NCBI GenBank assembly: GCA_028865725.1
Contig: JAGWJP010000001.1
Coordinates: 55,377-119,376 of the forward strand
Source of the DNA: Patescibacteria group bacterium
Lineage (GTDB): Bacteria > Patescibacteriota > Minisyncoccia > UBA6257 > JACRHW01
Length of the DNA stretch: 64,000 nt
Direction of reading: 5' to 3'
Part shown: in pieces, positions 48,185 to 63,932 of the stretch
Numbering within the stretch: position 1 is the stretch's first letter
Layout: each line of letters opens with the position of its first letter
Made by a program: the position numbers and the translations under genes
Notes under the pieces: generated by a model
Database searches by the model: none
What the model was told of the DNA's origin: nothing
The model's input: only the letters and a program-made list of their open reading frames with translations

Positions 48185-48742
48185 CTAGTGACTACCAAAT
48201 ACATCGGGCGGCAGAGTTTCCGGCCACTCTCCAGTTTCTCGTATTATTGCAAGTTTCCACAATAGATCGCCTACACGGCCATTCCCGTCTTCAAAAGGAT
48301 GAATTGTTTCAAAGTCTGTGTAATATTCTAATGGGTTTACTGCGTTGCCAATAAAGGCATCGATTAACCCTTCAAGTGCTCTTTCAATATTTTCGGGATC
48401 AATGCCGCGTGTCATATTGGCAAAACGTACTGGAATCCTTCTGAACCCTTTTTGATTTCTTTTTTCTATTATTTCCGCCCACCGCATGATATACTCTTTC
48501 ATCTCGGAAGGGGTAAGCGCGGCGAGTTTCTCCGTATCAGATCCTAATGTCTTGGCGGAGATGTATGCTTCTGCAAAGCCCAGAATTTGTTCTCTAGAAG
48601 TTGCGTGTTGCAAGATACATTGCTCAATAATCAGTTCCTTATCTTTTTGGGTAAGCCTTTCCGGAAATTTCAAAGAAGCAATATCCAATGGAACTGATTT
48701 TATTTCTTCGTTATTTTTCATGGCTTGGACTGTCGATGCCAC
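48185..48742 (-). CDS. Fic-family protein (short form)
   Basis: FETIHPFEDGNGRVGDLLW Fic motif. Confidence 0.75.
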   Translation of the reverse strand: MASTVQAMKNNEEIKSVPLDIASLKFPERLTQKDKELIIEQCILQHATSREQILGFAEAYISAKTLGSDTEKLAALTPSEMKEYIMRWAEIIEKRNQKGFRRIPVRFANMTRGIDPENIERALEGLIDAFIGNAVNPLEYYTDFETIHPFEDGNGRVGDLLWKLAIIRETGEWPETLPPDVFGSH

Positions 48743-52832: not shown

Positions 52833-52904
52833 GCTCCTGTAGTTCAATGGATAGAACATCCCCGTCCTAAGGGGAGGATGCAGGTCCGATTCCTGCTGGG
52901 AGCA
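52833..52904 (+). tRNA. tRNA-Arg (anticodon CCT)
   Basis: GCTCCTGTAGTTCAATGGATAGAACA-TCCCC-GTCCTAA-GGGGA...GCAGGTCCGATTCCTGCTGGGAGCA. Confidence 0.8.
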
Positions 52905-53054
52905 CACACTAGTGAGAGGTGTTTTGCGACCGTGTTTCTCGGTACTCCTGGGCGACCACGAGAGCCGACCCGACTGTACGGAAACACGTTTCACACACAA
53001 CAATAGCGCAGCATTTTGCCGCGCTCTTGTTGTCTCTCTCCACACATGACCCCG

Positions 53055-54395
53055 CTATACCGTTTCTTTCTGCACCAAACTGATCGTTCTGTCTTTGAGC
53101 GTAAGCCTACTTTTCAAGTTTGAAAGCAGCTCTCGCTTCTCTGTGATTGATCCGTCAGTCAAAATGTAGGCGGCATAGGCTTTCACATCAAAGATATCCG
53201 ATTCGTCATTCTTTTCCTTGGCTTTCCCCAACGCAATCCTCCTGAACTTGTTGTAACGGGTTATCTCATCATTGAATTTTTGTTTCACGCCAAGTTCGTT
53301 TAGATCGAGGGTATTCAAGATAGGGATGATTTGTTCAATGATCTCTTCTTCTTTGATGTAGCCGCACGGACAGTTTACATCTCTCCGCTTCGTACATCCG
53401 TAGTACACGTAACGGTGGGTATTCCCATTCTTCTGGTACTTCCATTTCTCGGAGGCGGTAATCCCTGATCCGCATAATCCACACGTTATCAACTTCGTGA
53501 AGGCGAACTCCTTGTCATTCTTCACCTCGCTCCGAACAAGCTGTTCCCGCGCGCGATCGTACAACTCTTTGGTAATGATAGGAGTATGAGTCCCTGTATA
53601 CCAATTCCCTGATCCTTCGGGGAATTCGAAGACGCCGTAATAGAAGGTTTTCTGGAGAATGAGGAAGATGTTTGAGAGCGAGAGATGTTTTCCATTTCCC
53701 GTTTTGAAATCTACATCGTTCCGAAGCCATTGATACAAGCGGCGGCCGCTCCATCCTTCATGCGCCACCTTCTCAAACATTTGTTTGATGATGGGTGCTC
53801 GTACCGGATCGACAATCACTTCACAGGGCTTATCCTTTCGTTTCTCATTCAGATAACCTGTTGGCGCGACAGAGGGACGAAGTCCTTGTTCGCAGCGTGT
53901 GCGCAATCCGCGTTTTACGTTCTCTGACTTATTGTCATTTTCAAGCTTGGCGGTGGAACACAGAATCATCAGCATGAATTTTTCGCTTGGGCTATTGGAG
54001 AATTTCTGTGAAAAAGTTCGGATTTCGATGAGGAGCTTCTGATCCATGAGATCGACAAGGCTTCCAAGATCGCCCGCATTTCTTGAAAGCCTATCTGGCG
54101 CCCAGGTCAGGATTCCATTAAACTTACCTCCGCGTATATCCTTGAGGAGTTCATTGAACACCTCACGCTGTCCTGTCGCCTTAGCAGAATGGCTCTCCTT
54201 TCTAATCTCTGTGATCTCCAAACCATCCCGCTCGGCAATCTTGATCATTTCTTTGATTTGAGAATCGATGGAAAGCACCTGCTGTTCCTCTGATTCCGTT
54301 GATTTTCTTGCGTACAAACAGTAGGCGACCTTTGTTGGCAGCGGTGGATTGGTTGAGGACGCCGTGCCTGCCGCCCCCTTTAGTTGATTGTTCAT
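53055..54395 (-). CDS. Large serine recombinase (second copy), adjacent to tRNA-Arg(CCT)
   Basis: YCLYARKSTESEEQQVLSIDSQ catalytic region, recombinase and zinc-ribbon domains. The ORF-track start at 54503 would read through the conserved post-VR element, so the internal Met at 54395 is preferred. Confidence 0.8.
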   Translation of the reverse strand: MNNQLKGAAGTASSTNPPLPTKVAYCLYARKSTESEEQQVLSIDSQIKEMIKIAERDGLEITEIRKESHSAKATGQREVFNELLKDIRGGKFNGILTWAPDRLSRNAGDLGSLVDLMDQKLLIEIRTFSQKFSNSPSEKFMLMILCSTAKLENDNKSENVKRGLRTRCEQGLRPSVAPTGYLNEKRKDKPCEVIVDPVRAPIIKQMFEKVAHEGWSGRRLYQWLRNDVDFKTGNGKHLSLSNIFLILQKTFYYGVFEFPEGSGNWYTGTHTPIITKELYDRAREQLVRSEVKNDKEFAFTKLITCGLCGSGITASEKWKYQKNGNTHRYVYYGCTKRRDVNCPCGYIKEEEIIEQIIPILNTLDLNELGVKQKFNDEITRYNKFRRIALGKAKEKNDESDIFDVKAYAAYILTDGSITEKRELLSNLKSRLTLKDRTISLVQKETV

Positions 54396-54454
54396 ACACC
54401 CAAAGGAATGACGCAAACCACCCTGAGCGTCAAGGGTGGGTGAAATGTGATTAT

Positions 54455-54518
54455 AAAAAATTTTTCGAACGTCCAAGGAATCAAGAAGAACCAAGACAAT
54501 CAAGCACCCAAGGCGAAA
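54455..54518 (-). repeat. Conserved ~64-nt element immediately 3' of VR-A (copy 1 of 3)
   Basis: gtttcgccttgggtgcttgattgtcttggttcttcttgattccttggacgttcgaaaaatttttt on the gene strand. Copies are near-identical after each VR stop. Confidence 0.7.
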
Positions 54519-55346
54519 CTACCGAGAGGGACAGACGCCCAGAGTGGAGTAAGTGCTGCCGCGGGAAACGCTGCGGACGCTGAGACCGCCCGAATCGAAG
54601 CTGCCAACGAGGACGAAGCCGCCGCCGGACGACTGAACACCGGTCCAGTCCCATTTATCTTCTAAGAGCGATTCTTTATTGGCGCCATAATATAAAAACG
54701 TATCGTACGCAATTTCTACAGGAGTTCTTCGCTTTACTGAAGCAGGATCAATGTTATTCTGTTTAGCCCAGTCTTTGAGAACCTCTTCTTGTTGGTCCCA
54801 GTTTTTTCCTAATGAATCGGGTAATACCGATCTTGCCACAAGACCCCAACCGAGCTTCGGAGTATCTTCGATAGCGAATTTTTCAGCGTCATACCACCCT
54901 TCACCTTTTTTGCTCACGAACATTTTTTGCTTCTTTTTCTTGGGATTGCCTAATGTGTCGCCACTTGAGAACCTCTCACGTATTTGATCGATAGTTAGCG
55001 GTTTTTCGGTTTTCCCTTCGCCAAGTCTTGATACTCTTAAGACAAGCATCATTCCCAATTTCTTTGCCTGTTCTAGTTCTTCTCGCGTAAAGGGTATTGT
55101 CTCTATTTTTTCTGATTCTTCTGGACTAAGTTCAACGCCATACGTGGCTTTAATGGCTTCGGGTCCTAGAAAGTCTTTACCAAATATTTCTTGGGCCTCG
55201 GTAAATTCAATGGATCCTTCTTTGGCCTCTGGTACAAGATTTTCTTTTTTTGCAATATCCAAAGCTTGCGCTACTTTCTTTTGTGTAGAGGTTTTGTATT
55301 TATTCGGCTCGTATTCGTCGTAGATTTTGTAGGCTTCGAAGGGCAT
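54519..55346 (-). CDS. DGR-2 target (variable) protein A. The C-terminal ~40 aa are encoded by VR-A.
   Basis: 275 aa with no signal peptide. Paralog of the genes at 57411 and 60045 (MPFEAYKIYDEYEPNKYKTSTQKKV...). C-terminus ends ...LGVCPSR. Confidence 0.8.
   Translation of the reverse strand: MPFEAYKIYDEYEPNKYKTSTQKKVAQALDIAKKENLVPEAKEGSIEFTEAQEIFGKDFLGPEAIKATYGVELSPEESEKIETIPFTREELEQAKKLGMMLVLRVSRLGEGKTEKPLTIDQIRERFSSGDTLGNPKKKKQKMFVSKKGEGWYDAEKFAIEDTPKLGWGLVARSVLPDSLGKNWDQQEEVLKDWAKQNNIDPASVKRRTPVEIAYDTFLYYGANKESLLEDKWDWTGVQSSGGGFVLVGSFDSGGLSVRSVSRGSTYSTLGVCPSR
54522..54641 (-). repeat. DGR-2 variable repeat A
   Basis: Reverse complement matches TR2 (61178-61297). Differences are almost all at TR adenines. 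One G-to-T difference. Confidence 0.75.
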
Positions 55347-55347
55347 G

Positions 55348-57333
55348 CTATAGGTCTTGTGTATATTTTAGAATAACGTTTTGGACCGCCTGTGGCAATG
55401 TTTTGATGTCAGCAATAACTTCAGCATCGGGTTTGTAGGTTTCTTTAACAGCTCCGCCTGATTCAGTCATACCAAGACCCAACACAATAACTCCTTTGCT
55501 GCGCAATTCACGAAGGATGCCCTGAACCCGAGAGGCATCCTGACTCTCTCCATCAGAAAGTACCACGACCACCTTTCTTCTCGTTTTTTCTCGCAATTCT
55601 TTCTCTTGCTCTTGCGTAATTGATTTCAGGACCGCATCCAAAGAAAGGTAATCAGGAGTGCCTCCTCCTGCTTTATGCATTTTCTTCCAAATACCAACCC
55701 TATCTTTCTCTGACAACTCCGGCGAAAGTTCTTTCAGTTCGGTATCGCCAAAGTCACCAAAGGCCCTTGTCTCTGTTCTTACCTGAAGACCAAGGACTAT
55801 ACCGCTTTCATATTCAGCTTGTTTGATTTCCTTTTGAAAATCAGCGAGCGATTCCAAGAATAGTAGTTTACTCTTCCGGTCCATTTCTAACTTACCGCCT
55901 TCGCTCATAGAACCAGAAAGATCGTTTACGAGAGACATGTCCAACATACCATAACCTTTTTGTTCTTTCTGATGTTTTTCAAGTTCACGAAATGCGTGTG
56001 GCTCTCCGCCCATCCGAGATTCGATGGAAGATTCGACGAGCGTGTCTTCGGATAATTCTTCACCTTCCGTCTCGAGCTGTGGCGAAAACTTCCAACGTTC
56101 TTTGAGGCGTCGAGAAATAATCTGTTTAAATACTTCTCGCAATTCAGCGACGAGCGGAGCAATTTCTGCATATTCCTTACGATACCCAAGAACATCCTCA
56201 GCGTTAACTCCGTGTTCACGAGCCCATTCTTCAAGAATATTCTGTTCTAGCGTTGGTGCTCCGCCTTTCTTGGCGACAATCTCTTCCATCATTTTCTTGA
56301 TCTGTTTCTCTTCTTCGTAGGTGATAGGTTCAGGGTGGCTGTCGTGGTATGTTTTGTATTGTTCTTTAAACTTCTTCTGAGCCGCTTCTTTCGCAGCACG
56401 ATCGCTGGTTTTTTTATCACCCTCGTTACCCGGCTTTTCTTCTTTTCCTTTGCCTTCTTGCGGTGTTTCCCTTTTTCTCTGCCACCATTTTCTTTTTTCC
56501 TGACCCGAACCTTGACCCTGTTGCGGCTTATCGGAAACCGTAGTGTCTGTTGGTGATACTTGCCCCTGATCTTTTTTACCATTCTTCTTTTCTTCCTCTA
56601 GGTCTTTCTCGTAAAGTTCCCGGTAGATAGGTTCAACGATCGTTCGCATAATGCGAAAACGATCTTTGGGATCAATGGTTGGTGTCGTGACAAGATCTAA
56701 AATATCTATTTTTTCAGAACCAAAACTTCGCAAGGTGTCCAACGCAGTTTGTGCATCTAGCCCAAGTTGTACTGCCTCACCGGACACCATCATCTGCCGG
56801 ATAAACCCATAGGTAAATTGGACATGGGAAGCTTTATCGGTGTAATCGGTTTGTGGAAACATCTTTTCTCGATAGAGAGTTTCACGTGTTTCCTTGAGAA
56901 ACGGAAGCTCAGCAACGATACGCCTGTTGCCTAACACGTCCTCAAAAATATTGTATAACAGATGGAGATGTTCTTTTGCACTATAACGCTTAGCCTCTTT
57001 TAAAATGAGCTCCGGATCGCGCAGGAGCTCGCCGTAGTGGGCCATGAGTTCATGTGTCGTGGCAAAGAGGGTTTCCTGAAGATTATACCCGCGTTCGATA
57101 AAGAAGTTGGGATCGTAGATAAGTTTTCGATTTTGAAAATCAAACGCCCAGCCGCCATTGCCCCGTTCTAAGGTAATGTCGCCCTTTAATCCATAGGCGG
57201 ACAAAAGCTCTGTCTCCCGATTCAAAAACTCCTCAACCGCAGGGGCATCAATTTCACGTTCTTTTTTAGGAACCTCCTGTTTTGGTGTATTACGAGGAGG
57301 TTCCATCCGATTTGTAGGGAATGATTCTTGCAT
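55348..57333 (-). CDS. von Willebrand factor A (VWA) domain protein with a long acidic/basic linker
   Basis: MIDAS LVNDLSGSMSEGG. C-terminal VWA fold ...VVVLSDGESQD...GVIVLGLGMTE. 661 aa. Confidence 0.7.
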   Translation of the reverse strand: MQESFPTNRMEPPRNTPKQEVPKKEREIDAPAVEEFLNRETELLSAYGLKGDITLERGNGGWAFDFQNRKLIYDPNFFIERGYNLQETLFATTHELMAHYGELLRDPELILKEAKRYSAKEHLHLLYNIFEDVLGNRRIVAELPFLKETRETLYREKMFPQTDYTDKASHVQFTYGFIRQMMVSGEAVQLGLDAQTALDTLRSFGSEKIDILDLVTTPTIDPKDRFRIMRTIVEPIYRELYEKDLEEEKKNGKKDQGQVSPTDTTVSDKPQQGQGSGQEKRKWWQRKRETPQEGKGKEEKPGNEGDKKTSDRAAKEAAQKKFKEQYKTYHDSHPEPITYEEEKQIKKMMEEIVAKKGGAPTLEQNILEEWAREHGVNAEDVLGYRKEYAEIAPLVAELREVFKQIISRRLKERWKFSPQLETEGEELSEDTLVESSIESRMGGEPHAFRELEKHQKEQKGYGMLDMSLVNDLSGSMSEGGKLEMDRKSKLLFLESLADFQKEIKQAEYESGIVLGLQVRTETRAFGDFGDTELKELSPELSEKDRVGIWKKMHKAGGGTPDYLSLDAVLKSITQEQEKELREKTRRKVVVVLSDGESQDASRVQGILRELRSKGVIVLGLGMTESGGAVKETYKPDAEVIADIKTLPQAVQNVILKYTQDL

Positions 57334-57344
57334 TGAGATAGTTA

Positions 57345-57410
57345 TAAAAAATTTTTTCGAACGTCCAAGGAATCAAAAAGAATCAAGAGATCCAAGCACC
57401 CAAGGGGAAA
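57345..57410 (-). repeat. Conserved post-VR element, copy 2
   Basis: Same sequence family as 54455-54518. Confidence 0.7.
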
Positions 57411-58229
57411 CTACCGAGAGGGACAGACGCCCAGATCGGAGCTCGTGCCGTCGCGGGTATCGCTGTAGACGTTGAGACCGTCCGAATCGAAGCGGCCAAC
57501 GAAGACGAAGCTGCCGCCGGACGACTGAACGGCAGACCAGTCATAAGAACTTTCGAGGAGAGATTCTTTGTTCGCACCATAATACAAAAGAGTATCGTAG
57601 ATGATCTCAACGGGAGTCCTACGTTTTACTGAAGCAGGATCAATATTGTTTTGTTTGGCCCAACTCTTGAGAACCTCTTCTTGCTGATCCCAGTTTTTAC
57701 TGCGTGATTCCTGTAAGACTTCTTTCATAACTAAACTCCACCCGAGTGAAGGCGTAACCTGTGTAGCAAACGATTCATTATTATACCAATCCTGATCGTA
57801 AAATATCTTTGTTTTTTTCTTGGTGGGATTACCCAACTTGTCTCCCGCCTTAAAAACTCCCCGCACATTGTTAATGCTAAAAGGTTTTGCAGTTTTATCC
57901 TTACCGATTCTTGGTATGCGTAAGACGAGCATCATGCCAAGTTGTTTTGCCTGTTCTAATTCTTCTCGAGTAAATGGGATGTTTTCGATACGTCCAAGTT
58001 CATCAGGAGAGAGTTCAATCCCGAACGTTGCTTTGACAGCTTCAGGACCCAAAAAATCCTTACCTAATAGTTCTTGGGCCTCATTGAACTCAATAGTTAC
58101 TTCCTTTGCCTCAGGCACAAGATTTTCTTTCTTGGCAATATCTAAAGCCTGAGCCACCTTCTTTTGCGTGGAAGTTTTGTACTTGTTGGGCTCGTATTCG
58201 TCGTAAATTTTGTAGGCTTCAAAAGGCAT
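57411..58229 (-). CDS. DGR-2 target protein B
   Basis: 272 aa. About 75-80% identical to target A outside the VR. C-terminus ...SFVFVGRFDSDGLNVYSDTRDGTSSDLGVCPSR. Confidence 0.8.
   Translation of the reverse strand: MPFEAYKIYDEYEPNKYKTSTQKKVAQALDIAKKENLVPEAKEVTIEFNEAQELLGKDFLGPEAVKATFGIELSPDELGRIENIPFTREELEQAKQLGMMLVLRIPRIGKDKTAKPFSINNVRGVFKAGDKLGNPTKKKTKIFYDQDWYNNESFATQVTPSLGWSLVMKEVLQESRSKNWDQQEEVLKSWAKQNNIDPASVKRRTPVEIIYDTLLYYGANKESLLESSYDWSAVQSSGGSFVFVGRFDSDGLNVYSDTRDGTSSDLGVCPSR
57414..57533 (-). repeat. DGR-2 variable repeat B
   Basis: Reverse complement aligns to TR2. All 12 or so mismatches fall on TR adenines. Confidence 0.8.
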
Positions 58230-58258
58230 GATTCGATACGCGTATCAACGAATGGTCA

Positions 58259-59938
58259 TTATTCTTTACCCTGCCACTGACGGACTGTTTTAGAAGATAA
58301 TCCTTGGATATCAAATTCTTCTGGATTAGTGTCCTTGAAAAATTTATTCGCCATAAATACTTTAATCATATTTTCACGATCCTTGGCGGCTCGACCGCTG
58401 ATTTCTGCCTTTCTGAAAAATTCTCGGAGCACAACATTTTCTAATGGTTCAGCAAAACCAGAGGCCTTCCAGGCTTTCATGATTTCAATTTGATCTTTTA
58501 AGGTAATAACGAGTTCTTTAAAGGCAAGTTTATCGCTACGCGCTAATGAATCTTCACCACCTTCTCGCATGCTCAAAGTAAAATCTTCCTGAATCTTACG
58601 GCACGCGCCGACAAAACGCTTTAACGCATCGAGTTTTTGTGGTGCTTCTTGTTCGTCCCACGCAATGGCGCCATTTCGATCTGCAAGTACACCCGCAAGA
58701 ATAGTAAGCGTCTCAGGAGCAATATATTCACCTTCTTTGTTCTTTTTGCCGAGATCTAGATAATGAATTTCTTTCGCCCCCGCACCGCCGATAAAACGGC
58801 GAAGCGTGGCAACATCAAGTTCGTAGCGTTGCTTATAGCGTTCTGATTTAAGATTAGCGGTGGCAAAAATAACAAATCCGGGGGCAACCTTGATTGATTC
58901 TCCTGTTGAAGGATGCTTCCATGAACTGCCCACACGTAACTGAAAAATTTCGTTCAAAATGCCTTGAAATTCATGAGGCATAAGGTTCATTTCATCCAAA
59001 ATAACGGGACGCCCTTCCTTCATGCTTTTCACAAGTTCTGAATACAGAAAATCAGTAGCGCCATCTTTGAGGGTAACACGTCCCATGATTTGAGATTCTT
59101 TGATTTGTTCGGAAATGGAGATTGGCGCAACTTCGTAACCCAGAAATCTATGAGAAATGTATTTAGCAAGCTGAGTCTTGCCAGAACCTGTTTCGCCTTG
59201 AAACAAAATAGGCGCGCCGCGCAATAAATCAGGTAAGACGTCTTGAATAAGCTTGGTGCGCGATTCTGTCTCGGCAAAACTATAACGCTCTAAATCTTGT
59301 TGCGTGCGCCGAACCTCTCTCCGGCGTAGCATATCAATTGATGCCGGATCTAATTCAAAAGCAGTTACATTGTTTTGTAGTTCCTCTCTCCGATTTGTGA
59401 GATCGGTAAGCTTGGTGCGTTCAATCGGGCCCGGTGCGCGTCCTATTTTTTCATAGAGCACGCGAAGTTTTTGTTCACTATTCGTGACAGCGCTAAGTTC
59501 TTTTTGGAGATGTTCATAGGTTAGAACGTTGGCTAACGTATCCTTCATGCCTTCAAAGCGCTCTTTATACGTCTCCATTACTTTGGAGTTACTGCCCAGT
59601 TCTTGAATACGCGCATCATATTCAGCAAGAACATTCTCGGAAAATTCTGCCATTTCAGGATCAATTTTAAGTGCGTCAAATTGAGCCGCAACCGCATCAT
59701 CGCCTTGAGCCTTCAATTCTTCTCGTTCGGTTTTTGTAAGACCGCCCCACGATTCACGGACGTGCTTTGATGCTTCGACTCTTGCGGCGGAGAGGTCCAT
59801 AAGCTCTTGGACTCGTGTTTCAAGTTGCTCAGGAGAAAGTTTTTGCTTCTCTTTTGTACTATCAACACCTTTTTCCTCAATAACGCGCTCCGGAGTGGTA
59901 GGTAGATTAGGCATTGATGGAAATTGTTCTTTGGGCAT
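58259..59938 (-). CDS. MoxR-like AAA+ ATPase (AAA_5 / dynein-related subfamily)
   Basis: Walker A LFQGETGSGKTQLAKY. Walker B VILDEMNLMPHEFQGILNEIFQ. ...FVIFATANL. 559 aa with a coiled-coil N-terminus. Confidence 0.8.
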   Translation of the reverse strand: MPKEQFPSMPNLPTTPERVIEEKGVDSTKEKQKLSPEQLETRVQELMDLSAARVEASKHVRESWGGLTKTEREELKAQGDDAVAAQFDALKIDPEMAEFSENVLAEYDARIQELGSNSKVMETYKERFEGMKDTLANVLTYEHLQKELSAVTNSEQKLRVLYEKIGRAPGPIERTKLTDLTNRREELQNNVTAFELDPASIDMLRRREVRRTQQDLERYSFAETESRTKLIQDVLPDLLRGAPILFQGETGSGKTQLAKYISHRFLGYEVAPISISEQIKESQIMGRVTLKDGATDFLYSELVKSMKEGRPVILDEMNLMPHEFQGILNEIFQLRVGSSWKHPSTGESIKVAPGFVIFATANLKSERYKQRYELDVATLRRFIGGAGAKEIHYLDLGKKNKEGEYIAPETLTILAGVLADRNGAIAWDEQEAPQKLDALKRFVGACRKIQEDFTLSMREGGEDSLARSDKLAFKELVITLKDQIEIMKAWKASGFAEPLENVVLREFFRKAEISGRAAKDRENMIKVFMANKFFKDTNPEEFDIQGLSSKTVRQWQGKE

Positions 59939-59980
59939 ATTGTAAGTGTTATACGGTTATGAATTGATTGTACCAGTTTC

Positions 59981-60044
59981 AAAAATTTTTTCGAACGTCC
60001 AAGGAATCAAGAAGAACCAAGACAATCAAGCACCCAAGGGGAAA
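59981..60044 (-). repeat. Conserved post-VR element, copy 3
   Basis: Same sequence family as 54455-54518. Confidence 0.7.
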
Positions 60045-60857
60045 CTACCGAGAGGGACAGACGCCCAGACTGGAGCTCGTGCCGTCGCGGGTATCGTCGC
60101 TGACGTCGAGACCGCCCGAATCGAAGCTGCCAACGTCGACGAAGCTGCCGTCGGACGACTGAACGGCAGACCAATCCCAGGTAGATTCTAATAATGATTC
60201 TTTGTTTGCACCATAATAGAGGAGAGTGTCATAGATGATTTCTACGGGGGTTCTGCGTTTAATAGTATTCGGATCTATATTATTGTCTTTTGCCCACTTT
60301 TTAAGAACCTCCTCTTGTTGATCCCAATTTTTATCCAATGATTCCTGGAGCACGTCTTTTGTTACCAGGCTCCATTTGAGTTGCGGTGTCGGTTTTGTTG
60401 CAAATTCTTGGTCGTTATACCAATCCTGTGATTTCCAAAACAAATTCGTTTTCTTCTTTGCGGGATCTCCCAATGCATCATCGGACCCGAATTGTTCTCG
60501 CAATTGTTTGATGGTAAGCAGGTTTCCATCCTTATCATGCGATACCCGCAACACAAGCATCATCTTAAGATGTTTTGCTTGTTCAAGCTCTTCTCGAGTA
60601 AACGGGATGTTTTCAATCTCCTGCAATTCTTCAGGGGTAAGTTCGACGCCATATGTCGTTTTAACCGATTCGGGTCCCAGAAAATCTTTGCCGAATAGTT
60701 CTCTGGCTTCATTGAATTCGATGTTTGTTTCTTTAGCTTCAGGTATGAGATTCTCTTTTTTGGCAATGTCTAAAGCCTGCTCAACCTTTTTCTGAGTAGA
60801 AGTCTTGTATTTATTCGGTTCGTATTCGTCGTAAATTTTGTAAGCTTCAAAAGGCAT
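60045..60857 (-). CDS. DGR-2 target protein C
   Basis: 270-aa paralog. C-terminus ...GSFVDVGSFDSGGLDVSDDTRDGTSSSLGVCPSR. Confidence 0.8.
   Translation of the reverse strand: MPFEAYKIYDEYEPNKYKTSTQKKVEQALDIAKKENLIPEAKETNIEFNEARELFGKDFLGPESVKTTYGVELTPEELQEIENIPFTREELEQAKHLKMMLVLRVSHDKDGNLLTIKQLREQFGSDDALGDPAKKKTNLFWKSQDWYNDQEFATKPTPQLKWSLVTKDVLQESLDKNWDQQEEVLKKWAKDNNIDPNTIKRRTPVEIIYDTLLYYGANKESLLESTWDWSAVQSSDGSFVDVGSFDSGGLDVSDDTRDGTSSSLGVCPSR
60048..60167 (-). repeat. DGR-2 variable repeat C
   Basis: Reverse complement versus TR2: all differences are A to G or A to other at TR adenines. Confidence 0.8.
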
Positions 60858-61177
60858 AGCTATTTCTTTAACTATACAGAATATGAAACATTTTTGCCAA
60901 CTTTCGCAATCATAAAACGTATGCCATACTAATGGCGAGCTTTGTTACTAGAGATTAGGCTGCATAGGTTTAATCTTACGGATCTCCTTTTTGCATATTC
61001 CGCCGGAGTTTCTGTGGCATATCGGTTATAGAAAGCGCGCGGTGGCAAAACGTAAGAACAACGAAACTACGTGTTTTGTTTCAATGTGGATGCCTTGTGC
61101 ACGGGCTGCCACTACGTAAAATTCAGGAGATATTTCCTTGTTGAAATTATCCGGTGATGGGGAAGGAACAAAACACA

Positions 61178-61297
61178 CAGGTTCAGTCGTCCGACGGCAA
61201 CTTCGTCAACGTTGGCAACTTCGATTCGGACGGTCTCAACGTCAACAACGATACCCGCGACAACACGAACTCCAATCTGGGCGTCTGTCCCTCTCGG
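61178..61297 (+). repeat. DGR-2 template repeat (TR2), AAC-rich
   Basis: gttcagtcgtccgacggcaacttcgtcaacgttggcaacttcgattcggacggtctcaacgtcaacaacgatacccgcgacaacacgaactccaatctgggcgtctgtccctctcgg. In-frame translation is ...NFVNVGNFDSDGLNVNNDTRDNTNSNLGVCPSR. Confidence 0.8.
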
Positions 61298-61314
61298 TAG
61301 TTTTGTTAATCTGG

Positions 61315-61345
61315 ATGAAGAGGCCTTCTTAGAAGGCCTCTTCAT
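61315..61345. terminator. Perfect 14-bp stem-loop between TR2 and the Avd 3' end
   Basis: atgaagaggccttc-tta-gaaggcctcttcat. Confidence 0.5.
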
Positions 61346-61719
61346 TACTCTCGCGTTGATCGGATCCATCCGCCAAGCATTTTGCCAATTTCCTGGATAT
61401 GGTTTTGGCAAACAACGTATCGCTTATCGCTCAGCGCATCAACGTCGTTTGTTAATCGGATAAAAACTTTTAACATATCAAGCTTGCCGCTTGCAGATTC
61501 TAGTATGGGTAATTTGCGATCTTTTGTGATTTGGGCGGCCAACATAATATCCTTCAAGATTTGTAAAATATATTCTTCGCAATATTGGCCTAACGTATAG
61601 CGATCTTTCTTTGGGAAATCGAGCTCGAAAATGTAGAACTCTTTGAAAAAATCATACGTTTTTTTGAAGATAGGGATATCTAAGCTAAATTTTCCATCAT
61701 AGCCATGAGAGTTTTCCAT
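61345..61719 (-). CDS. avd: Avd-like accessory variability determinant of DGR-2. The start is uncertain.
   Basis: The C-terminal ~120 aa of ORF 61345-61932 align with the Avd of DGR-1 (DIPIFKKTYDFF...IGKMLGGWI). Met at 61719 overlaps the divergent RT start by 15 nt. An alternative start upstream cannot be excluded. Confidence 0.6.
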   Translation of the reverse strand: MENSHGYDGKFSLDIPIFKKTYDFFKEFYIFELDFPKKDRYTLGQYCEEYILQILKDIMLAAQITKDRKLPILESASGKLDMLKVFIRLTNDVDALSDKRYVVCQNHIQEIGKMLGGWIRSTRE

Positions 61720-62757
61720 AATATTTTTGATCAAATTATTAATATAGAGAATTTGGTTACTTCGTGGAGAGAATTTCGGATTGGCAAAAAACATCGCCGC
61801 GATACACTTATTTTTGAATATCGGTTGGAGGATAATCTCTGGTATCTTCGGAGGGTGCTTGAGGATAGAACGTACAAGCATTCCGGATACTTCTCTTTCT
61901 TTGTACAAGACCCGAAGGTCCGGCATATCCATAAAGCATCGGTTCGGGATCGAGTGTTACACCACGCGATTGTGAAACATCTTAACCCAATTTTCGAACC
62001 AACATTTATTTATGATTCCTATTCTTGCAGAATTAATAAAGGCACTCATCGAGGAATCAAAGCTTTTACTAAACATGCTCGGCAAGTCAGCAAAAACTGG
62101 ACAAGCACATGCTGGGTACTGAAATGCGACATCAGAAAATTTTTTGCCACCATCGATCACAATGTTTTGCTCGATATACTCTTTAGACATATTGCCGATC
62201 CTGACACGCGATGGTTACTACGCGAGGTTGTTTCAAGTTTTCGTTCGGAGTTTACGGTTGATCCGGAAAACCCCAAAGGAGTGCCTATCGGCAATCTTAC
62301 CTCGCAACTTTTTGCCAACGTGTACCTGAACGAGCTCGACCAATTTGTAAAGCATCAGTTGAAAGAAAAACACTACATTCGTTATGCCGATGATTTTGTG
62401 ATACTACACCCCCAAAGAGATCACTGTTTAGATATTGTGAAACGTATCACTACATTCCTTAAAGAATTTCTCAAGCTTGAATTGCATCCCAATAAAGTTA
62501 CTGTTAGAAAATTTAGCCAAGGCGTAGATTTTTTGGGTTACGTTTCTTTTCCTCATTTTGTGATACCGAGAAATAAAACCAGGAACAGAGTATTCAATAA
62601 AATACATGACAATATTTTGCTCTATAAACGTGGCCAATGGACGCTCGAGTCACTAAATCAAAGCATTCATTCATATCTTGGAATTTTATCTCACAGTAAT
62701 TCATTTGATCTCCAACAGGAGCTTGAAAATCAGATATTTTTTTGGCTGACAGAATAA
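61705..62757 (+). CDS. DGR-2 reverse transcriptase
   Basis: 350 aa. GVPIGNLTSQLFANVYLNELD (I/LGxxxSQ). YIRYADDFVIL. About 55% identical to the RT at 23001-24047. Confidence 0.85.
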   Translation: MRVFHNIFDQIINIENLVTSWREFRIGKKHRRDTLIFEYRLEDNLWYLRRVLEDRTYKHSGYFSFFVQDPKVRHIHKASVRDRVLHHAIVKHLNPIFEPTFIYDSYSCRINKGTHRGIKAFTKHARQVSKNWTSTCWVLKCDIRKFFATIDHNVLLDILFRHIADPDTRWLLREVVSSFRSEFTVDPENPKGVPIGNLTSQLFANVYLNELDQFVKHQLKEKHYIRYADDFVILHPQRDHCLDIVKRITTFLKEFLKLELHPNKVTVRKFSQGVDFLGYVSFPHFVIPRNKTRNRVFNKIHDNILLYKRGQWTLESLNQSIHSYLGILSHSNSFDLQQELENQIFFWLTE

Positions 62758-62819: not shown

Positions 62820-63932
62820 CTATAGCTCCGGAAAGATTGCTCTCACCTTCGCTTCGTGTTCCTCAATGGTTTTCTGATCTGGCTCAACGGTAGCGATATC
62901 AATCGTCACATCCTCCTCGAACGGCATCGTCTCTTTCTCATGAAAGAGGCGGTTCTTTGTGGTATTCGATTCCTCGTCTATGTTTGTCGCAGTTCGGATC
63001 GCCTTGTTGAGCTGCTCCATGTTTTCCCGCAAGGCAGCGAGTCTCTCGGAGACATGCTCCGCCATATCTGTCTCGTAGATGGGGGAAAGCTTTTTGAACA
63101 CAGTCTCGAAACCAAGGAGAATGGCATAGCCATTGATGAGCAGTTGTCGCCGTTCGGCAAATATTTTCGCTATTTCCTCATCTTTGAATCTGAGAAACAA
63201 TGTCCCGTTTTTTCTGAATTCTTCAAACAATGTCTGTGCATAGAGAAGGTTTGAGAGCATCGTCACACTCATACCATATCGACTGAAGGCGCCTGGTTCT
63301 CGGTTTCCTGCAAGGCTGCAAATCAAGAGCTCTTGGTCGAGATGCTCGTCCGTGTGATCGGGGTCATTTTCAGCGTACACGAGGCCAAGGTTCGGGTCGT
63401 AAGTGTCGACCCGCTTTTTGAAATCCTTGACGAATGCATATGCTCCGCCAAAGGCATAGAGACTTGTTCCGGTGATCACTGTATTGTTAAAGGTTTCGAA
63501 TGCTCTTTTTTCATCAAGTTCGCCTTTGAGGCTCGGCTCGATATTCAGGTTTTCGAAAATCATGGCAGCCGAGGCGAACTCACTATCGTAGAGACCCTTG
63601 CTCCAAAGTTTCTCTTTTCTGGTTTCTTCCTCAGTACGCTCCCTCAAGGCAAGCTCTCCAGAGGCGACATGCTTGCGTAACGTTTTTCTTGCTTTCACCT
63701 TGCTTTGGAACCACCGTTTCAAAAGTTCAGCATCATCGCTTGCCGCAAGCGGTGTGTATTCTTCGATGAGCCCATCGTCAAGCCAGCGTCGGCATGCCTC
63801 GCGAAGCATGGCCTTGATGGTCATAGTATGCTCTTTGGCATAGTGCTGCATCGCCTTCGTCACGGCATCGTGGATGTCATCGTCCTCCTCACGCGCTTCT
63901 TGATCCTTGGCTAGCGGATCGCCCGTAATCAC
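62820..63932 (-). CDS. Hypothetical acidic protein
   Basis: 370-aa ORF (GTG start). No recognisable motif. Confidence 0.4.
   Translation of the reverse strand: MITGDPLAKDQEAREEDDDIHDAVTKAMQHYAKEHTMTIKAMLREACRRWLDDGLIEEYTPLAASDDAELLKRWFQSKVKARKTLRKHVASGELALRERTEEETRKEKLWSKGLYDSEFASAAMIFENLNIEPSLKGELDEKRAFETFNNTVITGTSLYAFGGAYAFVKDFKKRVDTYDPNLGLVYAENDPDHTDEHLDQELLICSLAGNREPGAFSRYGMSVTMLSNLLYAQTLFEEFRKNGTLFLRFKDEEIAKIFAERRQLLINGYAILLGFETVFKKLSPIYETDMAEHVSERLAALRENMEQLNKAIRTATNIDEESNTTKNRLFHEKETMPFEEDVTIDIATVEPDQKTIEEHEAKVRAIFPEL

What the first reader, a model, noticed from the sequence alone, without database searches (positions are those of the whole stretch)
54519..60857. DGR targets interleaved in one operon with a MoxR-like AAA ATPase and a VWA protein: candidate diversified NTPase sensor/conflict system
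The gene order on the minus strand is target C, AAA_5 ATPase, target B, VWA (MIDAS) protein, target A. Gaps are 0-100 nt.

MoxR-VWA pairs act as chaperone or remodelling couples. They are also cores of NTP-dependent conflict systems.

Here they are flanked by three proteins whose C-terminal ligand-binding tips are hypermutated by the DGR. These tips probably have the FGE-type C-lectin fold usual for DGR targets. The targets lack signal peptides, so they may act in the cytoplasm.

I do not know of a described system that couples a MoxR/VWA pair to three DGR targets in one operon.
Basis: inference. Interest (0 to 1): 0.85.

Follow-up and report, generated by a model that had tools for sequence, protein, structure and literature searches.

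The report
Hypervariable lectin-fold proteins wired to ATPase
An uncultured ultra-small bacterium uses a mutagenic retroelement to diversify three soluble binding proteins whose genes alternate with an ATPase and its co-chaperone, a gene order kept across related genomes; this is a split version of a fused form already reported, and it suggests the variable proteins work inside the cell.

Summary
One template repeat (61181-61303, +) matches three variable repeats at the 3' ends of three paralogous minus-strand genes, and 40 of 41 mismatches fall on template adenines. These genes alternate with an AAA_5 (MoxR-clade) ATPase gene and a MIDAS-bearing VWA gene, with gaps of 1-106 nt.

The linkage is not chance. 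Of 26 distinct related loci, 22 have an AAA_5 gene adjacent or fused. In more distant relatives the same lectin domain is fused to the C-terminus of an AAA_5 ATPase.

The ATPase/VWA pair resembles phage-type CobS/CobT. The VWA protein has an invariant N-terminal HExx(x)H motif.

The claim that no such system is described is overstated. DGR links to MoxR and vWA proteins, and AAA-fused targets in Candidate Phyla Radiation (CPR) bacteria, are published. This locus is a split, three-target variant of that theme.

A sensor or adaptor role in a cytoplasmic ATP-driven machine is plausible but untested. No defence function is shown.

The parts
60045..60857 (-). Target A: 270-aa soluble protein. It has a disordered N-terminal peptide (residues 1-45) and an FGE-type C-lectin fold (residues 50-270). 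VR_A covers 60042-60164.
58259..59938 (-). MoxR-clade AAA_5 ATPase, CobS-like, 559 aa. The AAA_5 core is residues 244-382, with Walker A at residue 248 and Walker B at residue 312.
   Evidence: Pfam. PDB phmmer (midasin, NorQ). phrog_249 at 6e-22. Motifs.
57411..58229 (-). Target B: 272-aa paralogue of target A. VR_B covers 57408-57530.
55348..57333 (-). CobT-like VWA protein, 661 aa. The N-terminal domain (residues 30-255) carries an invariant H94-E95-x3-H99. A disordered charged linker follows (255-305), then a helical region, then a C-terminal VWA domain with MIDAS D471-x-S-x-S.
54519..55346 (-). Target C: 275-aa paralogue. VR_C covers 54516-54638 and is the most diverged from the TR (18 mismatches).
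61181..61303 (+). Template repeat (TR). It has 26 adenines in the coding part and nine AAC/AAT codons. About 10^15 protein variants are possible and none creates a stop codon. It lies on the RT strand, antisense to avd and to the targets.
61315..61347 (.). Strong hairpin directly after the TR and at the 3' end of avd. The 60-nt stretch 61301-61360 that contains it folds at -25 kcal/mol. It is a possible bidirectional terminator or TR-RNA element.
   Evidence: Sequence. Fold.
61345..61719 (-). bAvd accessory protein. The likely product is 124 aa starting at the internal Met, as in homologous loci. Its 5' end overlaps the divergent RT start by 15 nt.
   Evidence: Pfam. Homologue gene calls.
61705..62757 (+). 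DGR reverse transcriptase, 350 aa.
   Evidence: Pfam RVT_1. phrog_1423 at 2.9e-116.
59981..60044 (-). Conserved element of about 64 nt directly after the stop codon of target A. The same element follows target B (57347-57410) and target C (54455-54518). It is a candidate target-recognition sequence for retrohoming.
   Evidence: Repeat family D1. Sequences.
60871..60900 (-). Best sigma-70-like promoter match in the region (10 of 12), just upstream of target A.
   Evidence: This is a consensus match only.
53055..54503 (-). Large serine recombinase directly downstream of target C. tRNA-Arg(CCT) lies beside it at 52833-52905. It may mobilise the cassette.
   Evidence: Pfam. tRNA. Recurrent linkage.

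Best explanation
The locus is a complete, recently active CPR-type DGR (RT, bAvd, TR). It rewrites the ligand-binding tips of three paralogous, soluble proteins with an FGE/C-lectin fold. These proteins appear to be the variable subunits of one conserved module, together with a CobS-like MoxR AAA+ ATPase and a CobT-like VWA co-chaperone.

Shown:
- The mutagenesis is adenine-specific.
- Target A, the one modelled, has the lectin fold; B and C are its close paralogues.
- No protein has an export signal.
- The gene order is conserved across related genomes.
- In relatives the same lectin domain is fused to the C-terminus of an AAA_5 ATPase.

Inferred:
- The split proteins dock non-covalently through their conserved, disordered N-terminal peptide (MPFEAYKIY.EYEP.KYKTSTQKK). 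The docking site would be the ATPase ring or the MIDAS site of the VWA protein, possibly through the Phe-Glu/Asp motif.
- The hypervariable tip captures a ligand in the cytoplasm, most plausibly a protein from a phage, a mobile element or the host.
- The ATPase/VWA pair then remodels or processes what is bound. The conserved zincin-like HExx(x)H domain of the VWA protein is the only candidate catalytic output.

On this reading the locus is the split, three-receptor form of the AAA-C-lectin fusion targets known in CPR bacteria.
For: DGR activity. 40 of 41 TR/VR mismatches lie at TR adenines. The VR scaffolds match the TR at all but one non-adenine position, whereas the paralogues as whole proteins are only about 70-76% identical.

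Synteny. The arrangements T-AAA-T-VWA-T, AAA-T-VWA-T, VWA-T-AAA-T and AAA-T recur in 26 distinct target loci. AAA_5 is adjacent or fused in 22 of them and VWA is present in 22.

Rosetta-stone fusions. L022, L024, L025 and L028 encode AAA_5 fused to this lectin domain. Of the best 150 cluster representatives, 30 are at least 550 aa long with the lectin domain at the C-terminus. Eight of 10 sampled long ones carry AAA_5.

N-terminal peptide. It is nearly invariant even where the rest of the protein is only 34% identical. It changes type together with the ATPase/VWA type. In the fusions it is replaced by the covalent link. It is disordered in the model.

Localisation. No TM or signal peptide is present.

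Literature. Comparable MoxR/vWA-DGR logic is published.
Against: - No physical interaction was tested. A co-folding test could not be run.
- No PADLOC defence model matches the targets or the VWA protein. No classic effector domain is present.
- Absence of a signal peptide does not exclude non-classical export.
- L012 has no ATPase gene in the cassette, and L021 and L029 have no VWA gene nearby. The three-part set is therefore not obligatory in cis.
- The ligand is unknown.
Confidence: 0.55

Rival explanations
1. The variable proteins are surface or secreted adhesins that the episymbiotic cell uses to attach to hosts or particles. The MoxR/VWA pair is then a dedicated assembly, maturation or export chaperone. 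The zincin-like domain would remove the conserved N-terminal peptide as a leader.
For: - Most characterised cellular DGR targets are surface-exposed binding proteins (Roux et al. preprint).
- MoxR-vWA pairs assemble extracellular structures. The Acidianus two-tailed virus tail is one example, and ORF892 of that virus is a Foldseek hit.
- The conserved N-terminal peptide could be a leader or sorting signal.
- Jumbo-phage pairs of MoxR and peptidase-vWA were proposed to process structural proteins.
Against: - None of the five proteins has a signal peptide or TM segment.
- The homologous lectin domain is often fused to an ATP-dependent AAA+ enzyme, which argues for the cytoplasm.
- No secretion-system, pilus or sortase gene lies in the conserved cassette.
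Confidence: 0.2
2. The cassette belongs to a phage or integrative element. The CobS/CobT-like pair is a typical phage accessory module, and the variable proteins serve the element, for example as receptor-binding or anti-defence proteins.
For: - The ATPase matches phrog_249, the phage CobS family (6e-22).
- The VWA protein aligns over its full length with phage CobT-like proteins.
- A large serine recombinase sits next to the cassette here, beside a tRNA gene, and also in many related loci.
- Methyltransferase and nuclease genes flank it in L001 and L031.
- One IMG/VR contig carries the cassette.
Against: - No capsid, portal, terminase or tail genes lie beside the cassette in the window. Its left flank is housekeeping (MurB, Ham1, MacB, HtrA).
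- tblastn of the target and the VWA protein finds nothing in 50,697 phage records.
- The single IMG/VR hit is identical to a Yanofskybacteria MAG contig.
- In L005 the cassette sits between rpmI/rplT and infC with no recombinase directly flanking it, although a distant Resolvase-family ORF lies about 3 kb downstream.
Confidence: 0.12
3. The juxtaposition has no functional meaning. The ATPase and VWA genes are an ordinary cobaltochelatase or housekeeping MoxR pair that happens to lie between DGR targets.
For: Some homologues match the CobT and CobT_C Pfam families.
Against: - The linkage is conserved across divergent Patescibacteria while the flanking genes change.
- Gene fusions join the ATPase and the lectin domain.
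- The ATPase and VWA families are tight and specific to CPR bacteria.
- No ORF of CobN size exists in the window; the longest is 745 aa.
Confidence: 0.02

Closest known systems
AAA ATPase-C-lectin fusion targets of CPR DGRs (Paul et al. 2017, as cited by Dore et al. 2024; 'UVR4'/midasin-motif targets of Wu et al. 2018)
   Same: - Same phylum-level host group and a CPR-type cassette with avd and RT divergent.
- Same AAA_5 ATPase class.
- The lectin domain is homologous: 28-34% identical (best segment) to the fused forms in L022, L024, L025 and L028.
   Different: - Here the ATPase and the lectin domain are separate genes.
- There are three stand-alone lectin paralogues, each with a conserved N-terminal peptide in place of the covalent link.
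- A CobT-like VWA gene is interleaved with them.
VMAP ternary MoxR-vWA conflict systems with DGR-diversified FGS domains (Kaur et al. 2020, eLife)
   Same: A MoxR AAA+ ATPase, a vWA co-chaperone and a DGR-diversified FGE/C-lectin domain lie in one neighbourhood. The proposed logic is ATP-driven, threshold-setting sensing.
   Different: - No VMAP protein is present.
- The MoxR N-terminal WxhapG and PsWRxa motifs are absent.
- The lectin domain is not fused to the vWA protein.
- No TIR, caspase or trypsin effector and no adaptor domain is present.
- The host is a CPR bacterium rather than a multicellular one.
Clade 5A DGR loci with a MoxR ATPase directly upstream of a target that has an uncharacterised N-terminal extension (Dore et al. 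2024, PNAS)
   Same: The gene pair is ATPase followed by target. The target has no vWA domain and is predicted to be cytoplasmic.
   Different: - The RT lineage is different (CPR).
- The ATPase and vWA proteins are of the CobS/CobT type.
- Three targets share one TR.
- The adjacent Trypco, TIR or peptidase genes are missing.
Phage-type CobS/CobT pairs, that is MoxR plus a metallopeptidase-vWA protein (Iyer et al. 2021; Liu et al. 2021)
   Same: - The ATPase matches phrog_249.
- The VWA protein shares the full-length architecture: N-terminal domain with an HExxH-type motif, charged linker and C-terminal VWA.
   Different: - This pair is not in a phage genome.
- It is coupled to a DGR and to hypervariable lectin-fold proteins, which the papers read here do not report for the phage pairs.
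Midasin (Rea1/MDN1) MIDAS-UBL recognition
   Different: Midasin is a single giant eukaryotic polypeptide that acts in ribosome assembly. The analogy concerns mechanism only.

Membership tests
Diversity-generating retroelement (DGR) | Template and variable repeats that differ almost only at template adenines | tested here: met
   40 of 41 mismatches lie at TR adenines across three VRs.
Diversity-generating retroelement (DGR) | A DGR-type reverse transcriptase and an Avd accessory protein next to the TR | tested here: met
   RVT_1 at 1.2e-26 and bAvd at 4.7e-18. phrog_1423 at 2.9e-116.
Diversity-generating retroelement (DGR) | The variable region forms the C-terminal ligand-binding face of a C-lectin/FGE fold | tested here: met
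Diversity-generating retroelement (DGR) | Ongoing diversification within a population | not testable with these tools
   This needs read-level metagenome data. The only indirect sign is that the VR scaffolds match the TR at all but one non-adenine position while the genes have otherwise diverged.
MoxR-clade AAA+ ATPase | An AAA_5 core with intact Walker A and Walker B motifs, related to midasin, NorQ or CobS | tested here: met
   AAA_5 at 5.7e-20. Midasin at 4e-38 and NorQ at 5e-08. GETGSGKT and VILDE are present.
VWA/MIDAS co-chaperone of MoxR ATPases | A VWA fold with the DxSxS...T...D MIDAS, encoded next to the ATPase | tested here: met
VMAP ternary conflict system (Kaur et al. 2020) | A third conserved VMAP protein | tested here: not met
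   No gene in the cassette matches any VMAP family in Pfam. The only third component is the lectin-fold target.
VMAP ternary conflict system (Kaur et al. 2020) | A MoxR N-terminal region with the WxhapG and PsWRxa motifs | tested here: not met
   A pattern search of residues 1-245 found neither motif.
VMAP ternary conflict system (Kaur et al. 2020) | The FGS (C-lectin) domain is fused to the vWA component | tested here: not met
   They are separate genes here and in the related loci examined.
Aerobic cobaltochelatase CobNST | A CobN partner and a cobalamin pathway context | tested here: not met
   No ORF longer than 745 aa exists in the window. The neighbours are DGR parts. The rest of the genome was not examined.
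Phage-type metallopeptidase-vWA protein plus MoxR pair | An N-terminal zincin domain with HExxH and a downstream acidic ligand | tested here: inconclusive
Catalogued anti-phage defence systems (PADLOC 2.0) | A match of the signature proteins to a defence-system model | tested here: not met
   The targets and the VWA protein have no match. The ATPase has only weak generic AAA hits.

The most novel reading that the evidence does not exclude
The cassette could be an intracellular recognition system comparable to adaptive immunity. The DGR would continually generate a repertoire of about 10^15 cytoplasmic lectin-fold receptors. Each would dock through a common N-terminal peptide onto a MoxR/vWA-zincin machine. 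That machine would then unfold, disassemble or cleave whatever foreign protein the receptor has caught. This would be programmable substrate delivery to an ATP-driven remodeller in bacteria with minimal genomes.
Probability: 0.15. Interest if true: 0.85.

Novelty: new variant of a known kind. Interest (0 to 1): 0.55.

Why it matters
Roux et al. left open whether CPR DGR targets, which lack membrane or export features, really act off the membrane. Two results here argue that this large lectin family works in the cytoplasm as part of an ATP-driven complex. First, the stand-alone targets keep a conserved gene order with an ATPase and a VWA protein. Second, their homologues are fused to that ATPase. 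The family has 2,674 cluster representatives at E <= 1e-3.

The locus also offers concrete handles for experiment. These are an invariant N-terminal docking peptide, an intact MIDAS and an invariant HExx(x)H motif. The parts are small, soluble and separable, which suits reconstitution. This would also give a first functional context for the widespread phage-type CobS/CobT pairs outside cobalamin synthesis.

Tried and rejected
- Co-folding. I built a chimeric alignment of target plus VWA protein (A3) as a proxy for co-folding. MAFFT misaligned the target homologues, which showed only about 20% identity to the first row. The structure tool also accepts only window or database sequences. I therefore spent the last prediction on the VWA protein alone.
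- Literature. Paul et al. 2017 is not held. Its content is cited only through Dore et al. 2024 and Wu et al. 2018. No paper in the library combines DGRs with CobS, CobT or cobaltochelatase; only Wu et al. 2018 reports midasin-type AAA motifs in CPR DGR targets.
- Databases with no useful match. PADLOC, NCBIfam and PHROGs gave nothing for the targets. tblastn against the phage collection found nothing. Rfam found only tRNAs.
- Integration sites. I found no att-like direct repeat of 12 nt or more between the tRNA-Arg/recombinase end and the RT end.
- ORF at 62820-63932. It has no counterpart in any related locus, so it is not treated as part of the system.
- Artefact. The ATPase HMM I built included fusion proteins. 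It therefore also hit stand-alone targets, shown as 'AAA+T' labels. Those labels were interpreted by protein length and by the Pfam results.
Full report
**1. The observation**

- target A, 60045-60857
- ATPase, 58259-59938
- target B, 57411-58229
- VWA protein, 55348-57333
- target C, 54519-55346

The gaps between them are 106, 29, 77 and 1 nt. Pfam gives AAA_5 (5.7e-20) for the ATPase and VWA (6.9e-07) for the VWA protein. The targets have no Pfam match.

To the right lie a bAvd gene (minus strand) and an RT gene (61705-62757, plus strand). By comparison with homologous loci, the bAvd product is probably 124 aa, encoded at 61345-61719.

A 123-nt template repeat at 61181-61303 (plus strand) forms inverted repeats with the 3' ends of all three target genes. 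The three VRs differ from the TR at 11, 12 and 18 positions, and 40 of these 41 are TR adenines. Every other position but one is identical to the TR. The paralogues as whole proteins are only about 70-76% identical. All three genes have therefore received template copies recently.

The TR encodes nine Asn codons (AAC/AAT) and 26 adenines in all. This allows about 10^15 protein variants without ever creating a stop codon. No other VR exists in the window.

**2. The parts**

*ATPase.* It is closest to the AAA modules of midasin (4e-38) and to NorQ. Among phage families it matches the CobS-like phrog_249 (6e-22). Walker A and Walker B are intact.

Over its full length it aligns with phage CobT-like proteins and with ORF892 of the Acidianus two-tailed virus. 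Divergent homologues match the Pfam CobT_C and CobT families.

Its N-terminal domain carries an invariant His-Glu-x3-His. This reads HExxH in divergent relatives. Conserved Asn, Glu and Asp residues follow on a later helix. The predicted order is three beta-strands and then the motif helix.

*Localisation.* None of the five proteins has a hydrophobic segment compatible with a signal peptide or a membrane helix.

**3. The linkage is not chance**

The window comes from a Patescibacteria MAG. Homologous targets were traced in two ways: by exact-protein look-ups and by a scan of one genome per GTDB species. All loci were mapped with tblastn, phmmer and HMMs. Several arrangements appear.

| Arrangement | Loci |
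|---|---|
| T-AAA-T-VWA-T (as in the window) | Yanofskybacteria and relatives: L010, L011, L013, L014 |
| AAA-T-VWA-T | L015, L020, L032 |
| VWA-T-AAA-T | L005, L009, L017, L018, L023 |
| T-VWA-T | L012 |
| AAA-T only | L021, L029 |
| AAA-T-T-Avd-RT-VWA-T | L031 |

Of 26 distinct target loci, 22 have an AAA_5 gene adjacent or fused and 22 have a VWA gene. The exceptions are mostly short contigs. The flanking genes differ from locus to locus. In L005 the cassette lies between rpmI/rplT and infC. The unit that is conserved is therefore the cassette itself.

**4. Fusions**

In Berkelbacteria, Howlettbacteria and other distant lineages the homologous lectin domain is fused to the C-terminus of an AAA_5 ATPase (L022, L024, L025, L028). 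A CobT_C/VWA gene lies upstream and a further stand-alone target lies downstream.

A profile search of 1.84 billion cluster representatives finds 2,674 family members at E <= 1e-3. Thirty of the best 150 are at least 550 aa long with the lectin domain at the C-terminus. Eight of the 10 long members I sampled carry AAA_5. Other partners also occur: a protein kinase in L026 and transglutaminase-core proteins in L025, L027 and P0201.

Fusion to an ATP-dependent enzyme, together with the lack of export signals, argues that this lectin family acts in the cytoplasm.

**5. A docking peptide (inference)**

All type-I targets begin with MPFEAYKIY.EYEP.KYKTSTQKK, whatever their position in the operon. 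The peptide is kept even in the Azambacteria locus L021, where the rest of the protein is 34% identical but the ATPase is 69% identical.

Loci with a different ATPase/VWA lineage have a different N-terminal peptide, for example ...EKPQFEAFW... or MPTETLPFDPNQ.... Those lineages are 20-27% identical to the window's proteins, or undetectable by BLAST. Most types keep a Phe-Glu/Asp pair within the first 16 residues.

In the fusions, homology to the stand-alone targets starts at about residue 39-51 of the target. The peptide is therefore replaced by the covalent link.

I infer that the peptide tethers the free lectin proteins to the ATPase or to the MIDAS site. This is not shown.

**6. Mechanism and rivals**

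The best-supported reading is that the DGR diversifies three interchangeable ligand-binding subunits of a cytoplasmic complex built on a MoxR ATPase and a CobT-like VWA protein. The ATPase/VWA pair would remodel or process whatever the variable tip binds. The HExx(x)H domain is the only candidate catalytic output. A role in conflict with phages, mobile elements or host cells is plausible by analogy. It has no direct support, and no PADLOC model matches.

The rivals are:
- Surface adhesins with a dedicated assembly or processing chaperone. This is disfavoured by the missing export signals and by the ATPase fusions.
- Cargo of a phage or integrative element. A recurrent large serine recombinase, a neighbouring tRNA-Arg and the phage-like CobS/CobT affinities speak for it. 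Against it, the window's left flank is housekeeping. Phage collections hold no homologue, and the only IMG/VR hit is a Yanofskybacteria MAG contig.
- Coincidental juxtaposition. This is excluded by the synteny and the fusions.

**7. Comparison with what is known**

- Kaur et al. 2020 described MoxR-vWA 'VMAP ternary' systems whose vWA protein is fused to a DGR-diversified FGS domain.
- Dore et al. 2024 described MoxR ATPases directly upstream of DGR targets. [quoted passage not shown] 2017.
- Wu et al. 2018 noted midasin-type AAA motifs in CPR targets and an unusual CPR cassette architecture.

The locus is not a VMAP system. There is no VMAP protein. The MoxR N-terminal motifs are absent. The lectin domain is not fused to the vWA protein, and there are no effector or adaptor domains.

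Several features are not described in the papers I could read:
- the split form, with stand-alone lectin proteins alternating with the ATPase and VWA genes
- the shared N-terminal peptide
- the CobS/CobT-type identity of the pair, including its HExx(x)H domain
- the evolutionary series from split to fused forms

I class the locus as a new variant of a known kind, of moderate interest.

Noticed in passing
window 52833-54503: tRNA-Arg(CCT) lies directly beside a large serine recombinase that abuts target C. A homologous recombinase lies next to the cassette, at either end, in L010, L009, L011, L015, L018, L023 and L028. The DGR-ATPase-VWA cassette may move as a small island of about 10 kb. No att-like repeat was found.
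   Followed up: partly
window 61181-61719: The cassette layout is unusual. avd and RT are divergent and their start codons overlap by 15 nt. The TR lies downstream of avd but on the RT strand. Any TR-RT co-transcript would therefore read through antisense avd. A hairpin in a 60-nt stretch that folds at -25 kcal/mol separates TR and avd. L001 and L010 have the same layout.
   Followed up: partly
window 54455-54518, 57347-57410, 59981-60044: A conserved element of about 64 nt follows the stop codon of every target gene (TTTCCCCTTGGGTGCTTGAT...TTCGAAAAAATTTTT). It is distinct from the sequence that follows the TR. It may mark the recipient sites for retrohoming.
   Followed up: partly
window 55348-57333, protein residues 94-132: The VWA protein has an invariant HELMAH motif (HExxH in divergent homologues) and a conserved NIFEDVLGN helix. 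This suggests a zincin-like peptidase domain that no Pfam model recognises.
   Followed up: partly
L005 3207-10915: In this Patescibacteria contig the whole cassette (RT, Avd, VWA, target, ATPase, target) lies between rpmI/rplT and infC, genes that usually form one operon. Wu et al. 2018 also remarked on ribosomal protein genes inside CPR DGRs.
   Followed up: no
L026 7550-10693; L025 209-2728; L027 44-1681: The same lectin domain is also fused to a Ser/Thr protein kinase (L026). In L025 and L027 it sits next to transglutaminase-core proteins that also match the profile built from this VWA protein family. P0201 combines VWA and Transglut_core in one protein. These look like alternative output modules for the same variable sensor.
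   Followed up: partly
L022 2701-3114; L024 2571-2996; L028 7206-7610: In the three fused-type loci with an upstream VWA gene (L022, L024, L028), a small ORF of 134-141 aa sits between the VWA gene and the ATPase-lectin fusion gene. It has no counterpart in the window.
   Followed up: no
L030 352-711: A Smithella contig (Deltaproteobacteria, not CPR) encodes a 606-aa protein that matches both the lectin-domain profile and the ATPase profile. That ATPase profile was built partly from fusion proteins, so the ATPase part is not independently confirmed. The ATPase-lectin pairing may therefore extend beyond Patescibacteria.
   Followed up: no
window 48185-48742: A Fic/DOC-family protein is encoded about 6 kb from the cassette, among otherwise housekeeping genes (MacB-type ABC exporter, HtrA-like protease, ECF-type sigma factor).
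   Followed up: no
window 62820-63932: A 370-aa ORF lies next to the RT gene. It has no Pfam, PADLOC, PHROG or NCBIfam match and no counterpart in any related locus. Its function is unknown.
   Followed up: partly
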